A stretch of DNA of 19,248 bases, from UHGV virus genome UHGV-0135199; one strand, given 5' to 3'. This DNA is from a virus. The translations under genes were made by a program, and so were the position numbers. Under the pieces are notes generated by a model, which was given only the letters and a program-made list of their open reading frames with translations, ran no database searches and was not told the DNA's origin. The number at the start of each line of letters is the position of its first letter. Position 1 is the stretch's first letter. Below are positions 1 to 16,017 of the stretch, in pieces.

Positions 1-468
1 TTATCTGAGGCATTGCTCACGAATGTATAGCTGTGCCCCTTCCAGTTGCTTCTGCATCGTCATCAATCGGTCTCTGAGGGTGAAATAATCCCGTTCAGCG
101 GTGTCTGCCAGTCGGGGGATGGTTGCATTATCCACGCTGGTGGGGCCGGTGGCTTCACGCACGGCTGCGGAGCAACTGGCATTGACCCGCAGGCGCTTAC
201 GACCAGCGGCAACATCAGCGCGCAGAGTTTCATTTTCAGCTTTCGCATTGGCTAATTCTCTCGAGTACTTTGCATCGAGCGCAGCAACATCACGCTGACG
301 CTGCTGCATGTCAGCGATGGTGGCGATCGCCTGCTTCAGCTCACTGACTTTTTTATCACGTTGTTCTTTGTAGGCGATGGCGTTATCACGGTAATGATTG
401 ACCGCCCACGACAGGCAGACGATAGTGCAGATAACCAGAGCATAAATAATTGCGGCGACTCTGCTCAC
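1..468 (-). CDS. Rz: Rz i-spanin
   Basis: Translation from GTG at 468 begins [14 protein letters not shown]..., closely matching lambda Rz as recalled; GTGA overlap with the endolysin stop; stop codon at 1..3. The ORF-track start at 483 is a TTG and probably not used. Confidence 0.85.
63..248 (-). CDS. Rz1: Rz1 o-spanin lipoprotein, embedded in the +1 frame of Rz
   Basis: [20 protein letters not shown]... with lipobox and proline-rich tail, matching lambda Rz1; fully nested in Rz. Confidence 0.8.
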
Positions 469-998
469 TGATCTATTCCCCAACAGGCTAATGCGCTTTC
501 CTGGTCACGACGAATAACCTGACCGTAACAGTTATTTGAACGAATGCGGCAATCACGGCCACCGTCCTTAATCCACCAGCGAATCGCCTCGCATGCACCT
601 TTACGATCACCAGCATTCAGCCGCTTATAAAACGTCGACGGGAAACACTTACCGGGGCCAATGTTATAGGGACAAAATGACGCTATACCCGCTTTCTGTG
701 GTTCGGTCAGTGGCACTTTAATATTGCGCTCCACCCATACCAGCGCCTTATCCCGTTCAATGGCGTTAACCTGGTCGCATTTTTCCTTCGACAGTTTCAT
801 ACCGGGAAAAACGGGTTTTCCATCCACCACCGTGGCACCCCGACAGATGGTCCAGATGCCGGAACCATCGCGGTATGCCGTTGTGTGGTTACCTTCTTTT
901 TCATCCAGAAACTGGTCGAGAATATCAGGCGCAGGCGCACCGACGGCAATCAGTGCCAGAACGGCAGCCGACAGGCCGTATCTGATTTTTGCGTTCAT
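465..998 (-). CDS. R: SAR endolysin (T4-lysozyme-like glycoside hydrolase)
   Basis: N-terminal hydrophobic signal-anchor-release segment ([17 protein letters not shown]) followed by an E-x8-D-x5-T lysozyme catalytic motif ([16 protein letters not shown]); resembles endolysins of 21/933W-type phages. Confidence 0.85.
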
Positions 999-1103
999 GG
1001 ATATTTATCAGGATTTATCGGTTTCTGAACCCTGGATATGTTTATCTGTCCCGGCCTGTTGAATCAGGCGGGGAAAAGGTAAAGACAATCAAGAGGATTA
1101 TTT

Positions 1104-1376
1104 ATGGACAATAACACCATTTCTCTACAGGAGTTGCTCGACTGCATTTCCAGGCTTCGGGATGATGTAAATGCCCTCACTGTTGCATTTTCATATCTGG
1201 CCTTATCAATTCCCAGAGAACAAATGCAACCAACACTGGCATCGCTCCTGCTTGAATCACGCAACCCCAAATGGTCCCAGGAACAACAAAATTCTTTCAA
1301 GTGGCTGGCGGCATTACTGGAAGAAAAATATGCTGGTAAAATTACCATTTCGGTGGATTCTTCAGAGAATCAGTAA
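1104..1376 (+). CDS. Hypothetical protein (90 aa), convergent with the lysis genes
   Basis: ATG at 1104 preceded by AAGAGGA with a 6-nt spacer; no family recognised; its 3' end overlaps the 3' end of the 1342..1686 gene by about 35 bp. Confidence 0.45.
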   Translation: MDNNTISLQELLDCISRLRDDVNALTVAFSYLALSIPREQMQPTLASLLLESRNPKWSQEQQNSFKWLAALLEEKYAGKITISVDSSENQ

Positions 1377-1686
1377 TTCTTCCTGGTAGCTTTCCTTTGT
1401 AGGTTATCCACACATTCTGCGCATCTAAAATTACGGGGCGCTTTTCCGGCGACTGCTCATCCCCTTCACATAACCCGGCAGCAACATCCAGGAAGACCTG
1501 TCTGATGCTCCTTCTGGCTGCTGCCTCATAAAACTCCAGCGCGGCACCTTCAACACGGTCCAGCGAGATGTCCAGGTCAAAAATTTCACCGTCAAAGCGT
1601 TTTTTGTCCCGTAACGCTAAAGTTACCGTAACTTTATTCTCAAAATTGCGGATCCCTTTCACAATCACTTCATAGTTTTGAGTCAT
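1342..1686 (-). CDS. Hypothetical protein (114 aa) between holin and endolysin; possibly YdfR-like
   Basis: ATG at 1686 with GGGAGAG SD lying over the holin stop (tight coupling); N-terminus MTQNYEVIVKGIRNFENKVTV recalls YdfR of the Qin prophage (unverified recollection). Confidence 0.55.
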   Translation of the reverse strand: MTQNYEVIVKGIRNFENKVTVTLALRDKKRFDGEIFDLDISLDRVEGAALEFYEAAARRSIRQVFLDVAAGLCEGDEQSPEKRPVILDAQNVWITYKGKLPGRITDSLKNPPKW

Positions 1687-1690
1687 TGAA

Positions 1691-1906
1691 TTACTCTCCC
1701 CGTGCAGCCTTACGCTTGTCTTCTCTTATTTTGAAATACAGATTCGTCAGATAAGTCAGGAAGCCCAGAACCAGACTCCCCAGTACACCAATCGCAGCCC
1801 ACTGTGACGGACTGACCTGATCAAGCCACTGTAAATACCAGTAGCCAGCACTGCCTGCGGAGGTGCCGTAGGCAATGCCCGTTGAAATTTTATCCATGGA
1901 TTTCAT
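1691..1906 (-). CDS. S: Class II holin (pinholin, phage 21 S family) with dual-start motif MKSMDK
   Basis: [71 protein letters not shown] matches S21 as recalled; GGGGGTGAGG SD upstream; the ORF-track N-terminal extension is rejected. Confidence 0.9.
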
Positions 1907-2009
1907 AGCCTCACCCCCGCAGATAACGGATGGCGTATTCAGTTCAGGAAGATCGAGGGATAAATGATGAGACCTATTCACCTGCGGTGAGGGATTCACA
2001 TTATACAAA

Positions 2010-2744
2010 TTAATAAGCCAGAGATTTTTCTGGTATATCTTTTGAAGAGTACTGATTTGGGGTCACGCCAAAATATTTTCTGAAAACAGAAATAAAATAA
2101 GACACATTTTCATAACCACAAATTCCTGCGACCTCACAGATTGAATAGCGGTGGGTATTTAACAAATTTTCTGCTACAACCATTCTTTCTTCAAGAATAA
2201 TTTTACTAAATGACACCCCTTCATCTTTTAACTTTTTCTTTAACAGGCTTTCACTCAAATACAATCTTGAGGATATATCTCTTAGTCTCCAGCATGCCGC
2301 AATATCCGTATGGATAATAGCCTTAACCTTTCCCCCAACACCATTCAGACATCCGAATAAAAAAGTCTGAAGCATTTTATCTGATGATAAAACCGCAAGA
2401 CATGCAAATGATATTGTACTCTTGATTAATGTCGTATTTGCGCCACTATGATTCAGGCAAATGATTAACTGGCTAAGCAATGAGAAATCAAAAGCACTGA
2501 CCATTAAGTATGCGGGATACCCTCTTCTGACGGAGTGATGTGCAAGAGTATTTATTTTGAAGTAATCGTTAACAGTTTTCTCATCAAAGTCAGCGATAAT
2601 CACATTATCAGGGCATGCAGAGAAAACATTTCTTAAACTATAATCTACAAGAATAGCATCCCCCCTTTCAAGAAAGTGCTCTCTCTTGCCAAACCGGACA
2701 TCAAATGAGTTCAATACCAGGATGACAGAACATATGACCGGCAT
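2010..2744 (-). CDS. AraC/XylS-family transcriptional regulator (accessory gene between Q and holin)
   Basis: C-terminal HTH signature ([31 protein letters not shown]) typical of AraC family; ATG at 2744 preceded by AGGTGGG; region visibly AT-rich relative to neighbours. Confidence 0.8.
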
Positions 2745-2887
2745 ATTACCCACCTGATATTATGAATATTTAAATTAAGTATACGCAGGAAATCACACTT
2801 TACCAAATATGCAATAACAAAATGCTGCGGGAAAAGCCTCACTACCTGTTATCAAGCGGTAGACATACAAATCCCATCATTGAGAAA

Positions 2888-2916
2888 ATCCTATCCATTT
2901 TTTTTGAAAAATGCAA
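2888..2916 (-). promoter_or_regulatory. Candidate late promoter pR' (-35 TTGCAT, 17 bp spacer, -10 TAGGAT) just downstream of Q
   Basis: Hexamers read on the minus strand at the position where lambda carries pR'/qut; AT-rich context makes chance matches likely. Confidence 0.25.
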
Positions 2917-2947
2917 GCATCATGTCGCCATCTTCGGCGAAAATCAT

Positions 2948-3700
2948 CTATCTCGTCACTTTTCTCAATTGCGCTTCTGCGTAAGCTTCTTCTTGCCAGC
3001 ACTTTGTAACAAGTTTATCAATAATGTCAGCATACCCCTTGTACCACTGATAATCCGTCAGGTCCGGTACCAGTTTCTGGACATGATGCCGCGCCAGTGT
3101 GGTTGGTAAACGACTAAACCGGTTTCCATTGCAACGCCCACAAATCTTATAAACAGGCGCGCCATGAAGCCGGGTCCTTTTTTCATCCAGGACAATACCT
3201 TTACCCTTACACCCTCTGCACGCTGTGCTGACTTCTCCCTTACCATGGCAATGCTGACATAGTTCCTTCCCCCACTCTTCCTTGATAACAGATTCCCCGC
3301 TTCTGGAGTGTTTCACCACTTCGCGCAATACATTATGAAATCCAGTACCAGCACAATGCTCACAGCGAGCCTTACTTGCCGCAGACCTGGAATAATCAGC
3401 AAAGGCAAAATTCACAAGGTAAGGGATAATCTGTAACCGGGTTTCTTCACTCAATTTATTCAATGTCGGGTTATCCAGTGCCATCGCGTAATTGAGCAGA
3501 CCTTCAATCGCAAACTGAGGATCCTGAACGCCAGCTTTTGCCAGGAATAAGGCAAACCCAAGCGGTGCTTTCGACTGCACCATCCCCTGCGCAGCCATCA
3601 CATCCGTAATTGATAAACCACCTGAGTCTGTCGCCGGTGCGTCATCGCTCAATTTTGGAGATTTTGGGGAGTAATATTTTGGTAATGCCTCAAGATTCAT
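2948..3700 (-). CDS. Q: Late-gene antiterminator Q (lambda Q family)
   Basis: MNLEALPKYYSPKSPKLSDD...TDVMAAQGM... aligns with lambda Q N-terminus and C-terminus (...KVTR); multiple CxxC zinc-binding motifs; GGAGAG SD upstream of ATG at 3700. Confidence 0.85.
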   Translation of the reverse strand: MNLEALPKYYSPKSPKLSDDAPATDSGGLSITDVMAAQGMVQSKAPLGFALFLAKAGVQDPQFAIEGLLNYAMALDNPTLNKLSEETRLQIIPYLVNFAFADYSRSAASKARCEHCAGTGFHNVLREVVKHSRSGESVIKEEWGKELCQHCHGKGEVSTACRGCKGKGIVLDEKRTRLHGAPVYKICGRCNGNRFSRLPTTLARHHVQKLVPDLTDYQWYKGYADIIDKLVTKCWQEEAYAEAQLRKVTR

Positions 3701-3780
3701 TCTCGCTCTCCATTTACACCAGCACGCCAATTGGCAGCAAAAAACAATAAAACGGCATCAACCGATCGTTATCTCTGGCT

Positions 3781-3918
3781 TCATACAATTGTCTCTGCCA
3801 GTGTTTTGGCGTAATTCTTCAGTATCCGGTAATCGGTCAAAACAGAACCGGGGAAACGATGTAAGCGCAGGCGCATCCAGCGGTGGCGAAGACGTTCTGC
3901 CACATAAAACTCAAACAT
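3781..3918 (-). CDS. ylcG: Small protein (45 aa), YlcG-like
   Basis: [45 protein letters not shown]; ATG overlaps the rusA stop (TGATG); not on the ORF track because below its size cutoff. Confidence 0.6.
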   Translation of the reverse strand: MFEFYVAERLRHRWMRLRLHRFPGSVLTDYRILKNYAKTLAETIV

Positions 3919-13839: not shown

Positions 13840-14516
13840 CACCGGACATTATCCTGCAGCGTACCGGGATCGACGTGAGAGCTGTCGAACAGGGGGATGA
13901 TGCATGGCACAAATTACGGCTCGGCGTCATCACCGCTTCAGAAGTTCACAACGTGATAGCAAAGCCCCGATCAGGAAAGAAGTGGCCTGACATGAAAATG
14001 TCCTACTTCCACACCCTGCTAGCTGAGGTTTGCACCGGTGTGGCTCCGGAAGTTAACGCTAAAGCGCTGGCCTGGGGAAAACAGTACGAGAACGACGCCA
14101 GAACCCTGTTTGAGTTCACTTCCGGCGTAAATGTTATTGAATCCCCGATCATCTATCGCGACGAAAGTATGCGCACCGCCTGCTCTCCCGATGGTTTATG
14201 CAGTGACGGCAATGGCCTTGAGCTGAAATGCCCGTTTACCTCCCGGGATTTCATGAAATTCCGGCTCGGTGGTTTCGAGGCCATAAAGTCGGCTTACATG
14301 GCCCAGGTGCAGTACAGCATGTGGGTGACGCGAAAAGATGCCTGGTACTTTGCCAACTATGACCCGCGTATGAAGCGTGAAGGCCTGCATTATGTCGTGA
14401 TTGAGCGGAATGAAAAGTATATAGCGAGTTTTGACGAGATGGTGCCGGAGTTCATCGAAAAAATGGACGAGGCACTGGCTGAAATTGGTTTTGTATTTGG
14501 GGAGCAATGGCGATGA
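13836..14516 (+). CDS. exo: Exo (Red-alpha 5'-3' exonuclease)
   Basis: [65 protein letters not shown]... matches lambda exonuclease. Confidence 0.95.
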
Positions 14517-15881: not shown

Positions 15882-16017
15882 GAATCCTTGAAGTGGCAGC
15901 CTAACTGCGGATACACTGAAATGGCGATTTGGTAACATGTTTCGCACAAGGGTGTTACTACGCTTAGAGATAATCAGCCATGATTAAACGCTTTGTAAAA
16001 AGTAAAAGGAAATTACA

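What the first reader, a model, noticed from the sequence alone, without database searches (positions are those of the whole stretch)
1104..1686. Two extra genes interrupt the holin-endolysin pair
In canonical lambda and 21 lysis cassettes the holin is directly followed by the endolysin. Here a 114-aa gene is tightly coupled to the holin stop, and a convergent 90-aa gene with a good RBS sits between it and the SAR endolysin, overlapping it at the 3' end. Genes placed here are co-expressed with lysis functions and could modulate lysis timing or be cargo. The coupled gene may be YdfR-like; that assignment is from memory.
Basis: partly seen in the sequence, partly recalled or inferred. Interest (0 to 1): 0.42.

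Follow-up and report, generated by a model that had tools for sequence, protein, structure and literature searches.

The report
YdfR gene plus antisense moron
Between the hole-forming and wall-degrading lysis genes of this E. coli prophage sit a known YdfR-family gene and a backwards-facing 90-codon "moron" (cargo) gene; both are real and common, and neither looks like part of the lysis machinery.

Summary
On the minus strand the order is S21-type pinholin (1691-1906), a 114-aa gene 4 nt after its stop (1342-1686), then lysozyme (465-998). A convergent 90-aa ORF (1104-1376, +) overlaps the 114-aa gene by 35 nt.

The 114-aa gene is a YdfR/DUF1327 member. Residues 1-74 are 80% identical to K-12 YdfR, whose first 72 residues bind the catalytic half of RNase E.

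The 90-aa ORF is a real gene. It stays intact in relatives of 28-98% identity, while the antisense ORF 1064-1348 does not. dN/dS between paralogues is 0.14-0.38.

It is a replaceable ~300-bp cassette, present in 1221 of 5426 complete E. coli genomes. Paralogues lie beside iha, beside plasmid autotransporters and within phage tail operons.

Its upstream region is a degenerate copy of a conserved promoter-like, structured leader that precedes the annotated moron gp23 of HK022 and many unrelated small genes, those examined reading antisense to late operons. Phage Perceval carries a complete copy at the same site.

Verdict: an annotated, widespread arrangement. YdfR is probably an RNA-metabolism accessory and ORF90 is cargo. 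A role in lysis timing is unsupported. The shared leader, absent from Rfam, is the most interesting by-product.

The parts
1691..1906 (-). S21-type class II holin (pinholin), 71 aa, with dual start MKSM
   Evidence: PF04971 at 4.9e-35. Annotated 'class II holin family protein' or essD in near-identical RefSeq loci. One strongly hydrophobic stretch.
1342..1686 (-). YdfR-family (DUF1327) gene, 114 aa plus stop. The ATG lies 4 nt after the holin stop.
   Evidence: PF07041 at 3.9e-42. PHROG 406 and 2091. RefSeq annotation 'YdfR family protein'.
1465..1686 (-). Conserved YdfR N-terminal domain (aa 1-74), predicted three beta strands followed by two helices
   Evidence: 80% identical to K-12 YdfR over aa 1-74, with no similarity after that. 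AlphaFold2 gives strands 5-14, 18-27 and 34-43 and helices 50-60 and 62-73. In K-12, residues 1-72 suffice for the RNase E interaction (PMC13232886).
1345..1464 (-). Variant-specific YdfR tail (aa 75-114), predicted disordered. Aa 75-112 are shared with the 116-, 176- and 183-aa YdfR forms; the last two codons (KW) are specific to this cassette.
   Evidence: pLDDT below 50 for residues 73-90 and 98-114. Alignment of C-terminal variants. DNA breakpoint at window 1347-1350.
1104..1376 (+). ORF90: a 90-aa acidic (pI 4.6), soluble, four-helix protein of an uncharacterised family (PHROG 2411)
   Evidence: PHROG 2411 at 3.6e-57 over full length. No Pfam, NCBIfam or PADLOC match. Homologues listed. 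ORF integrity. dN/dS 0.14-0.38. AlphaFold2 gives four helices with mean pLDDT 71.
1055..1346 (.). Replaceable cassette of about 300 bp carrying ORF90 codons 1-81 and about 50 nt of leader. The left edge is 1043-1055 and the right edge 1346-1349, depending on the comparison.
   Evidence: Replaced by about 20 nt in loci with the 116-aa ydfR (L087) and by about 470 nt in loci with the 176-aa ydfR (L085). GC 0.438 against 0.519 for R and 0.495 for the holin. Present in 1221 of 5426 complete E. coli genomes.
1342..1376 (.). 35-nt convergent overlap. The last codons of ORF90 (from about codon 82/83, depending on the junction at 1347-1350) and its stop are read from the antisense of ydfR sequence shared with other cassette variants.
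   Evidence: Coordinates. Junction. The ORF90 tail (residues 80-90) has pLDDT below 50 and is not conserved in the family.
1011..1042 (+). Promoter-like 5' part of the moron leader (GGATTTATCGGTTTCTGAACCCTGGATATGTT), with a -35-like TTTATC at 1014-1019 and a -10-like TATGTT at 1037-1042. It lies antisense within the 5' UTR of the lysozyme gene.
   Evidence: 21 of 21 nt identical to the leader 5' end in L120 and L179. It aligns to model positions 2-40. The covariance model match over window 1010-1102 scores 19.1 bits, E 0.056. It scores only 7 of 12 against the sigma-70 consensus and was not reported by the promoter scan. Promoter function is inferred.
1049..1073 (+). Leader hairpin CCCGGCCUG-UUGAAU-CAGGCGGGG at the position of helix P2 of the conserved moron leader. 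It would be at or near the 5' end of the ORF90 mRNA.
   Evidence: Fold of 1047-1112 gives -19 kcal/mol, z = -2.75. The covariance model aligns it to P2. P2 shows compensatory changes at 7 of 8 pairs across 64 leaders.
1091..1097 (+). Shine-Dalgarno sequence AAGAGGA of ORF90, 6 nt before the ATG
   Evidence: Read from the sequence. Its GAGGA core is invariant in 37 haplotypes. Similarity to the paralogues beside iha and the plasmid autotransporter starts here, at window 1087-1091.
465..998 (-). Lysozyme-type endolysin, 177 aa, with an N-terminal weakly hydrophobic (SAR-like) segment. It now lies 345 nt downstream of the ydfR stop.
   Evidence: PF00959 at 4.3e-24. Maximum 19-residue hydropathy 1.87 at residue 9. 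In K-12 the ydfR stop overlaps the rrrQ start.
1..483 (-). Rz spanin gene with embedded Rz1 lipoprotein ORF (63-248, -)
   Evidence: PF03245 at 1.2e-47. The embedded 61-aa ORF carries a lipobox-like LVVSAC.
2017..2034 (.). Bidirectional terminator-like hairpin between the AraC-type gene and the holin. It is the first terminator-like site downstream of ORF90 on the plus strand.
   Evidence: Scan hits on both strands. No terminator-like site lies between 1376 and 2017.

Best explanation
The two 'extra genes' have different natures.

(1) The 114-aa gene is a YdfR/DUF1327 late gene. It is transcribed with the lysis genes from the Q-dependent late promoter and starts 4 nt after the pinholin stop. 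It encodes a soluble cytoplasmic protein made of a conserved 74-residue beta-beta-beta-alpha-alpha domain and a disordered tail. In K-12 that domain binds the catalytic N-terminal half of RNase E and co-purifies with RNA. The most likely role is therefore an accessory acting on RNase E or RNA during late growth, not a membrane component of lysis. This role is inferred.

(2) The 90-aa gene is a moron: a self-contained cargo cassette of about 300 bp recombined into the ydfR/endolysin junction and reading against the late operon. It has its own Shine-Dalgarno sequence, a promoter-like element and a 5' hairpin. These are a degenerate copy of a conserved leader that precedes HK022 moron gene 23 and many unrelated small genes. 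Its product is an acidic, soluble four-helix protein under purifying selection, presumably acting by binding another macromolecule. Expression from the repressed prophage, and silencing by converging late transcription, are inferred from the moron paradigm and were not shown here.
For: YdfR:
- Pfam, PHROG and RefSeq names agree.
- 80% identity to K-12 YdfR over aa 1-74.
- RNase E binding by two-hybrid and pull-down, and RNA co-purification, in PMC13232886.
- S-ydfR-R synteny in K-12 Qin, BP-4795, mEp460, Perceval and Chlobot.
- No membrane segment. N-domain fold and disordered tail.

ORF90 is a real gene:
- ORF intact in 36 of 37 haplotypes and in 12 of 12 relatives of 28-98% identity, while the antisense frame is broken.
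- dN/dS 0.14-0.38.
- Conserved motif in distant relatives.

ORF90 is a cassette and cargo:
- Sharp boundaries against the 116-aa and 176-aa ydfR loci.
- Absent from K-12, mEp460 and BP-4795.
- Relatives lie between tail genes L and M, near the terminase, beside iha, beside autotransporters and between dinI and bssS.

Leader:
- 64 leaders show compensatory changes at 7 of 8 P2 pairs and 3 of 6 P3 pairs, with 0 of 500 shuffles reaching the observed values.
- The model scores HK022 gene 23 ('moron gene product') at E 4e-23 and the ydfR/R junction of Perceval at E 1e-11. It scores L085 at 0.0027, L001 at 0.019 and the window at 0.056.
Against: - No expression data for this locus were available.
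- The promoter-like element is weak against the sigma-70 consensus (7 of 12) and was not reported by the scan. The window's model match is borderline (E 0.056, rough calibration) and lacks the UCAGCC/GGCUGA pairing and helix P3.
- No terminator follows ORF90 before 2017, which departs from the classical moron definition.
- Frameshifted or truncated ORF90 variants exist in some genomes.
- The YdfR-RNase E link comes from overexpression of the K-12 protein, had little effect on the transcriptome, and was not tested for this 114-aa variant.
- The strict position of ydfR between S and R leaves a lysis-related role open.
- Fold searches gave no specific match for either protein.
Confidence: 0.6

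Rival explanations
1. YdfR is a lysis regulator. It would be a cytoplasmic factor made in fixed ratio with the pinholin that tunes pinholin triggering, or the release and activation of the SAR endolysin, and so sets lysis time.
For: ydfR always sits directly after an S21-type holin with a 4-nt gap and before the lysozyme, in every locus examined, including plaque-forming phages. A screen cited in PMC13232886 linked ydfR to envelope integrity.
Against: It has no membrane or signal segment. It matches no known antiholin or lysis-regulator family. The only direct data are RNase E binding and RNA co-purification. From general knowledge, the phage 21 cassette S21-R21-Rz/Rz1 works without such a gene.
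Confidence: 0.2
2. The ORF90 unit acts mainly at the RNA level. Transcription from its promoter runs antisense through the ydfR 3' end, and possibly through ydfR and the holin gene up to the terminator-like site at 2017-2034. This would damp leaky late or lysis expression in the lysogen by antisense pairing or transcriptional interference. The protein would be secondary.
For: The unit is convergent with a 35-nt overlap. No terminator-like site lies between 1376 and 2017. Leader-linked small genes were antisense to late genes in every locus whose gene layout was examined (L093, L124, L207, HK022, Perceval) and often overlap a convergent gene.
Against: The protein is under purifying selection, and its relatives occur in non-phage contexts where there is nothing to silence. 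No transcript data exist. Cassette-free phages manage without it.
Confidence: 0.12
3. The 90-aa ORF is not a gene. Either the antisense ORF 1064-1348 is the real gene, or the region is a non-coding spacer of the late mRNA.
For: Third codon positions of the two frames coincide. Among close haplotypes the antisense frame gives a slightly lower pN/pS, 0.27-0.29 against 0.39. Some genomes carry frameshifted or truncated ORF90.
Against: The antisense ORF has stops in 19 of 37 haplotypes, with two internal stops in one clade, and is broken in every distant relative. The sense ORF is intact in all of them. The antisense product matches no PHROG, Pfam or NCBIfam family. The sense product has distant homologues of the same length with a conserved motif.
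Confidence: 0.04

Closest known systems
E. coli K-12 Qin prophage essQ-ydfR-rrrQ, and YdfR (P76160, Pfam DUF1327)
   Same: The order is the same: S21-type holin, then ydfR 4 nt later, then lysozyme, then Rz/Rz1. The YdfR N-terminal domain is 80% identical over aa 1-74.
   Different: K-12 YdfR is 103 aa with an unrelated C-terminal helix, and its stop overlaps the rrrQ start. Here the tail differs, the protein is 114 aa, and 345 nt containing ORF90 separate ydfR from the lysozyme gene.
HK022 gene 23 ('moron gene product; gp23'), the moron concept of Juhala et al. 2000 as summarised in PMC3594210
   Same: Both are small genes inserted antisense into a late operon and convergent with or overlapping a neighbouring gene. 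Both are preceded by the same type of promoter-like sequence and leader hairpin. Both are extra DNA compared with related phages.
   Different: The window's leader lacks the UCAGCC/GGCUGA pairing and helix P3. No terminator follows ORF90. ORF90 is not demonstrably homologous to gp23: HHalign gives probability 11%, E 0.0026. The insertion site is the lysis cassette, not the tail operon.
Phage Perceval, junction between ydfR (104 aa) and the endolysin gene
   Same: The site and the antisense orientation are exactly the same. A complete leader (64 bits, E 1e-11) is followed by an unannotated 79-aa ORF that overlaps the ydfR stop.
   Different: The cargo differs (a gp23-like protein rather than ORF90) and the leader is intact.
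Other genes interrupting lambdoid lysis cassettes (ant between R and Rz in BP-4795; bor next to Rz)
   Same: They show that lysis cassettes tolerate inserted accessory genes.
   Different: Those insertions lie downstream of R and are unrelated in sequence. ant is co-oriented with the late operon.
Phage-encoded modulators of RNase E (T7 gp0.7, phiKZ Dip; recalled from general knowledge, not tested here)
   Same: This is a possible functional analogy for YdfR: a phage protein that contacts RNase E during infection.
   Different: No sequence or fold relationship was found. For YdfR only binding has been shown, not an effect on RNase E activity.

Membership tests
YdfR / DUF1327 (PF07041) | Profile match above the curated threshold | tested here: met
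   142.8 bits against a cut-off of 25, E 3.9e-42, covering residues 1-112.
YdfR / DUF1327 (PF07041) | Position directly after an S21-type holin and before the lysozyme gene | tested here: met
   Window, K-12 Qin, BP-4795, mEp460, Chlobot and Perceval.
YdfR / DUF1327 (PF07041) | Binding to the N-terminal catalytic half of RNase E, as shown for K-12 YdfR | not testable with these tools
   Only sequence conservation of the binding region (aa 1-72, 80% identity) could be shown.
Moron (Juhala et al. 2000, as summarised in PMC3594210) | Extra DNA relative to closely related phages, with sharp boundaries | tested here: met
   The cassette at about 1055-1346 is absent or replaced in L087, L085, K-12, BP-4795 and mEp460.
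Moron (Juhala et al. 2000, as summarised in PMC3594210) | Own promoter | tested here: inconclusive
   The promoter-like block 1011-1042 is homologous to the 5' part of the HK022 gp23-type leader. It matches the sigma-70 consensus at only 7 of 12 positions and was not found by the scan. No transcript data exist.
Moron (Juhala et al. 2000, as summarised in PMC3594210) | Own factor-independent terminator | tested here: not met
   No terminator-like site lies between 1376 and 2017 on the plus strand. ORF90 runs into ydfR instead.
Moron (Juhala et al. 2000, as summarised in PMC3594210) | Base composition different from the neighbours | tested here: inconclusive
   GC is 0.438 against 0.519 (R), 0.495 (holin) and 0.467 (ydfR). 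The difference is modest.
Moron (Juhala et al. 2000, as summarised in PMC3594210) | Expression from the repressed prophage | not testable with these tools
   This needs RNA-seq or reporter assays.
HK022 gp23-type moron leader (defined here: alignment A6, model R1) | Conserved 5' block CCCTGG(T/A)TAWGKT followed by hairpin P2 | tested here: met
   Window 1022-1042 is identical to L120 and L179. The hairpin at 1049-1073 aligns to P2.
HK022 gp23-type moron leader (defined here: alignment A6, model R1) | UCAGCC paired with the GGCUGA loop of helix P3 (GAGG/CCUC) | tested here: not met
   The motif GGRATGGCTGATTAMC is not found near ORF90 even with 3 mismatches allowed. The covariance model alignment deletes 31 model positions.
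HK022 gp23-type moron leader (defined here: alignment A6, model R1) | Significant score against the covariance model | tested here: inconclusive
   Window 19.1 bits, E 0.056. A near-identical locus, L001, gives 21.2 bits, E 0.019. Calibration is rough.
PHROG 2411 (ORF90 family) | Full-length profile match | tested here: met
   E 3.6e-57, covering 1-90 of 90. The family has no assigned function.
Antiholins and membrane lysis regulators (lambda S107, S21-71, T4 RI, P2 LysA/LysB; features recalled from general knowledge) | A membrane-spanning or periplasmic segment that lets the protein act on the holin | tested here: not met
   Maximum 19-residue hydropathy is 0.93 for ORF90 and 0.71 for YdfR, against 1.72 for the holin. 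There is no family match.
Known anti-phage defence proteins (PADLOC) | Profile match | tested here: not met
   No hit for ORF90, for YdfR or for their relatives.

The most novel reading that the evidence does not exclude
The conserved ~100-nt element found while tracing ORF90 may be a new class of cis-regulatory leader. It consists of a promoter-like block, the P2 hairpin, and a UCAGCC/GGCUGA loop pairing next to the ribosome-binding site. It would govern a large, hypervariable set of small genes inserted antisense into late operons of lambdoid and HK97-like prophages. ORF90 would be a decayed member of that set. Its unterminated transcript, running antisense through ydfR and the pinholin gene, would link cargo expression to suppression of leaky lysis-gene expression in the lysogen.
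Probability: 0.15. Interest if true: 0.65.

Novelty: new member of a known kind. Interest (0 to 1): 0.33.

Why it matters
The finding as stated adds little. S-ydfR-R is the K-12 Qin order, and the 90-aa gene is already annotated as hypothetical in more than a thousand genomes.

Three points are useful:
- The 90-aa ORF is settled as a genuine, selected protein family with relatives beside iha, beside autotransporters and in tail operons. It is therefore a candidate lysogenic-conversion or anti-phage factor present in about 22% of complete E. coli genomes, including CFT073 and S88.
- The ydfR/endolysin junction is shown to be a recurrent insertion site for antisense morons.
- Those morons share a structured leader, supported by covariation and absent from Rfam. 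It could serve as a search handle for accessory genes in lambdoid prophages.

For YdfR, the position in the late operon together with the published RNase E interaction gives a testable idea: that it modulates RNA decay late in infection.

Tried and rejected
- Family searches: Pfam, NCBIfam and PADLOC gave nothing for ORF90, and NCBIfam and PADLOC gave nothing for YdfR.
- PDB sequence profiles: no hit for either family.
- Rfam: no family over window 400-3000 apart from a chance RsmY hit far below threshold, and none over three loci with full leaders.
- The sigma-70 scan found no promoter in 999-1103.
- Codon-position periodicity and pN/pS among close haplotypes could not separate ORF90 from its antisense ORF, because their third positions coincide. 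ORF integrity and distant homologues were used instead.
- Homology between the ORF90 family and the HK022 gp23 family is not established: HHalign probability 11%.
- Convergent partner genes and the C-terminal extensions of 161-183-aa YdfR forms share only a weak coiled-coil resemblance, E 0.007-0.3.
- The prophage sRNAs Pas, AgvB, AsxR and STnc100 were considered for the leader. They are Rfam families or lie between Q and S, so they are not this element.
- A partial leader motif at window 15963-15981 has no leader context and is probably chance.
- The 16-mer scan of the viral collection is by itself near chance expectation by my own rough estimate, which assumes a collection size that was not measured. 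It became informative only because about 85% of hits share the extended context.
Full report
**Anatomy.** The lysis cassette lies on the minus strand. Its order is as follows:
- a Q antiterminator gene (2948-3730);
- an AT-rich AraC-type regulator gene (2010-2753);
- an S21-type holin gene (1691-1906; PF04971; dual start MKSM);
- a 114-aa gene starting 4 nt after the holin stop (1342-1686);
- a lysozyme gene with an N-terminal weakly hydrophobic segment (465-998; PF00959);
- Rz (1-483) with an embedded Rz1 ORF (63-248).

On the plus strand, a 90-aa ORF (1104-1376) with the Shine-Dalgarno sequence AAGAGGA 6 nt before its ATG converges on the 114-aa gene and overlaps it by 35 nt. NCBI's pipeline calls the same four genes in near-identical RefSeq loci: class II holin, YdfR family protein, hypothetical protein on the opposite strand, and lysozyme.

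**The 114-aa gene.** It matches Pfam DUF1327 far above threshold. Over residues 1-74 it is 80% identical to E. coli K-12 YdfR, and similarity stops there. In K-12 Qin the order is essQ-ydfR-rrrQ, with the ydfR stop overlapping the rrrQ start and no gene on the other strand.

The family combines a constant N-terminal domain with interchangeable C-termini. These are the 103-aa K-12 form, the 114-aa form seen here, a 116-aa form, 104- and 161-aa forms, and 176- and 183-aa forms. The last two share the window's sequence up to ...KTPP and then continue into a 64-71-residue helical extension.

The one experimental study found in the library (RNA Biol 2026, PMC13232886) reports the following for K-12 YdfR:
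- It binds the catalytic N-terminal half of RNase E in two-hybrid and co-purification assays.
- Residues 1-72 suffice for the interaction.
- RNA co-purifies with it.
- Overproduction barely changes the transcriptome.

The gene sits between S and R in plaque-forming phages BP-4795, mEp460, Perceval and Chlobot.

**Is the 90-aa ORF a gene?** It has no Pfam, NCBIfam or PADLOC match, but it matches PHROG 2411 over its full length. The word-indexed search found only Escherichia and Shigella relatives of 72-98% identity.

Across 37 distinct haplotypes of the region, variable sites are enriched at third codon positions (21, 10 and 10). However, the third positions of ORF90 and of the antisense ORF 1064-1348 coincide, so periodicity and pN/pS (0.39 sense, 0.27-0.29 antisense) cannot separate the two frames. 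Three other lines of evidence do:
- **ORF integrity.** ORF90 is open in 36 of 37 haplotypes. The antisense ORF carries stops in 19 of 37, including two internal stops in one clade.
- **Distant homologues.** An exhaustive profile search found relatives of 81-97 aa and 28-57% identity that share the motif ELL..I..LR..VN.L..AFSYLAFS...E....I.AL.FES.N. In all 12 family members examined the sense ORF is intact and the antisense frames are broken.
- **Selection.** dN/dS between paralogues is 0.14-0.38 at dS of about 1.

AlphaFold2 predicts four helices with mean pLDDT 71. The protein is acidic and soluble. Fold searches return nothing specific.

**ORF90 is a cassette.** Compared with loci that carry the 116-aa or 176-aa ydfR, similarity runs from the holin through ydfR codon 112 (window about 1347-1350) and resumes at window 1042-1054, continuing through the lysozyme gene. 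Between those points, about 300 bp carrying ORF90 is replaced by about 20 nt in one case. In the other it is replaced by about 470 nt holding the YdfR extension and a different convergent 86-aa ORF. The last ORF90 codons (from about codon 82-83) and its stop are read from the antisense of shared ydfR sequence.

The cassette occurs in 1221 of 5426 complete E. coli genomes, including CFT073 and S88, but in only 3 of 50,697 phage records. Some genomes carry frameshifted or truncated copies.

Family members also occur in other settings:
- beside the iha adhesin gene in an IS-rich island, and beside an autotransporter gene on a plasmid;
- between dinI and bssS, and elsewhere on a chromosome;
- in phage late regions, between tail genes L and M and near the terminase gene, on the strand opposite to the late genes.

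This distribution is that of cargo, not of a lysis function.

**A shared leader.** Three distant relatives carry a hairpin with the loop GGRATGGCTGATTAMC just upstream of the ribosome-binding site. A scan of the viral collection returned at least 120 contigs with this 16-mer. Such a count is near chance by my rough estimate, which assumes a collection size I did not measure. However, about 85% of the hits share a context of about 100 nt. In order, the context contains:
- a promoter-like block CCCTGG(T/A)TAWGKT;
- UCAGCC;
- an 8-bp hairpin, P2;
- a CA-rich linker;
- a GAGG/CCUC hairpin, P3, whose loop GAUGGCUGAUUA is complementary to the upstream UCAGCC;
- AAGGA followed by an ATG.

On 64 distinct leaders, 93% of cells pair. 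Seven of 8 P2 pairs and 3 of 6 P3 pairs show compensatory changes, and no shuffle out of 500 and none of the six shifted-register controls reaches the observed values. The UCAGCC/GGCUGA helix is invariant, but my selection of sequences required both halves, so this says nothing.

The downstream ORFs fall into at least 17 unrelated clusters of 63-100 aa. They lie antisense to late genes in every locus whose layout was examined (L093, L124, L207, HK022, Perceval), often overlapping a convergent small gene. No Rfam family matches.

A covariance model built from the alignment scores the leader of HK022 gene 23 at 116.8 bits, E 4e-23. That gene is annotated 'moron gene product' and lies antisense between tail genes I and J. 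These elements are therefore morons in the sense of Juhala et al. 2000, as summarised in PMC3594210.

**Link back to the window.** Window 1011-1042 (GGATTTATCGGTTTCTGAACCCTGGATATGTT) is the 5' block of this leader, and 21 nt of it are identical to two full elements. It is followed at 1049-1073 by a stable hairpin at the P2 position. The UCAGCC/GGCUGA pairing and P3 are missing.

Model scores at this site and in relatives are as follows:

| Locus | Score | E-value | Note |
|---|---|---|---|
| Window 1010-1102 | 19.1 bits | 0.056 | P2 aligned, P3 deleted |
| L001 (near-identical E. coli locus) | 21.2 bits | 0.019 | ORF90 cassette |
| L085 (176-aa ydfR locus) | 25.2 bits | 0.0027 | leader before the 86-aa ORF |
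| BP-4795 | 21.1 bits | 0.02 | truncated remnant, no ORF |
| Phage Perceval | 64 bits | 1e-11 | complete leader plus an unannotated 79-aa gp23-like ORF, same site and orientation |

The ydfR/endolysin junction is therefore a recurrent moron site, and ORF90 is one occupant with a decayed leader.

Promoter activity is inferred, not shown. The -35/-10 match is only 7 of 12, and the consensus scan reported nothing there. No terminator-like site follows ORF90 until the bidirectional hairpin at 2017-2034, so the classical moron criterion of an own terminator is not met.

**Mechanism.** Three things are shown:
- the gene identities;
- the reality of ORF90 as a coding gene, and selection on it;
- the cassette boundaries and the relatedness of the leader.

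Three things are inferred:
- YdfR acts on RNase E or RNA late in infection rather than on the envelope.
- ORF90 is transcribed from its own promoter in the lysogen and is opposed by late transcription.
- The ORF90 product acts by binding a partner.

The rivals are a lysis-regulator role for YdfR, an RNA-level antisense role for the ORF90 unit, and ORF90 not being a gene. They are given in the rivals section with their tests.

**Novelty and score.** The arrangement is annotated and widespread, and YdfR has a published interaction. As stated, the finding is a new member of known kinds: the YdfR family and the morons. The covariation-supported leader shared by many antisense morons and absent from Rfam is the most interesting result, but it lies mostly outside the window, and I could not check whether it has been described in the subscription literature. 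Interest is 0.33.

Noticed in passing
L093, L096, L105-L224, L226 (HK022 13980-14086) and L227 (Perceval); degenerate copy at window 1010-1102: A conserved leader of about 100 nt precedes at least 17 unrelated families of small genes. It has a promoter-like block, hairpin P2, and hairpin P3 whose loop GAUGGCUGAUUA complements an upstream UCAGCC. The small genes lie antisense to late operons in the HK97-like and lambdoid loci examined, and include the annotated moron gene 23 of HK022. The structure is supported by covariation and has no Rfam match.
   Followed up: partly
window 2010-2753 (-): An AraC-type helix-turn-helix regulator gene with GC 0.367 sits between the Q antiterminator and the holin, the classic moron site downstream of the late promoter where stx genes lie in Stx phages. 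It is followed by a bidirectional terminator-like hairpin at 2017-2034. The same gene occurs at this place in E. coli KOr019. It may resemble prophage-encoded AraC-like regulators of EHEC; that comparison is from memory and was not tested.
   Followed up: no
L085 2501-3031 and proteins P0089, P0093, P0161: YdfR exists in 161-183-aa forms whose C-terminal extension begins exactly at the cassette junction (...KTPP|). The extension weakly resembles (E 0.007-0.3) the small coiled-coil genes that lie convergent to leader-linked morons elsewhere. This suggests that a moron partner gene became fused in frame to ydfR.
   Followed up: partly
L227 (phage Perceval) 1606-1845 (+); L085 2979-3239 (-): Small convergent ORFs of 79 aa and 86 aa lie between ydfR and the endolysin gene. 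They are unannotated or only sometimes called in public records. Each is preceded by a complete or partial moron leader.
   Followed up: partly
L100 (plasmid pBCE049-1) 3514-3783; L101 (E. coli TUM1886) 3517-3789; L092: Paralogues of ORF90, about 74% identical at the nucleotide level over the ORF only, lie directly downstream of an AIDA-type autotransporter gene and next to the iha siderophore-receptor/adhesin gene in IS-rich islands. Similarity starts at the Shine-Dalgarno sequence, so these copies do not share the prophage leader.
   Followed up: partly
window 996-1020 (-): The endolysin start codon is preceded by an A/U-rich stretch (…CGAUAAAUCCUGAUAAAUAUCC AUG) with no obvious Shine-Dalgarno sequence. 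This 5' region is conserved across all cassette variants (L085, L087, BP-4795). In K-12 the gene is instead coupled to the ydfR stop.
   Followed up: no
proteins P0041, P0045, P0048, P0051 (94 aa) and P0047, P0055, P0058 (50-56 aa): A subset of genomes carries ORF90 copies that are frameshifted after about residue 58 or truncated. This indicates decay of the gene in some, probably defective, prophages.
   Followed up: no
window 15963-15981 (-): An isolated partial match to the leader loop motif (ATGGCTGATTATCTCT) has no hairpin, ribosome-binding site or small ORF context. It is probably chance.
   Followed up: yes
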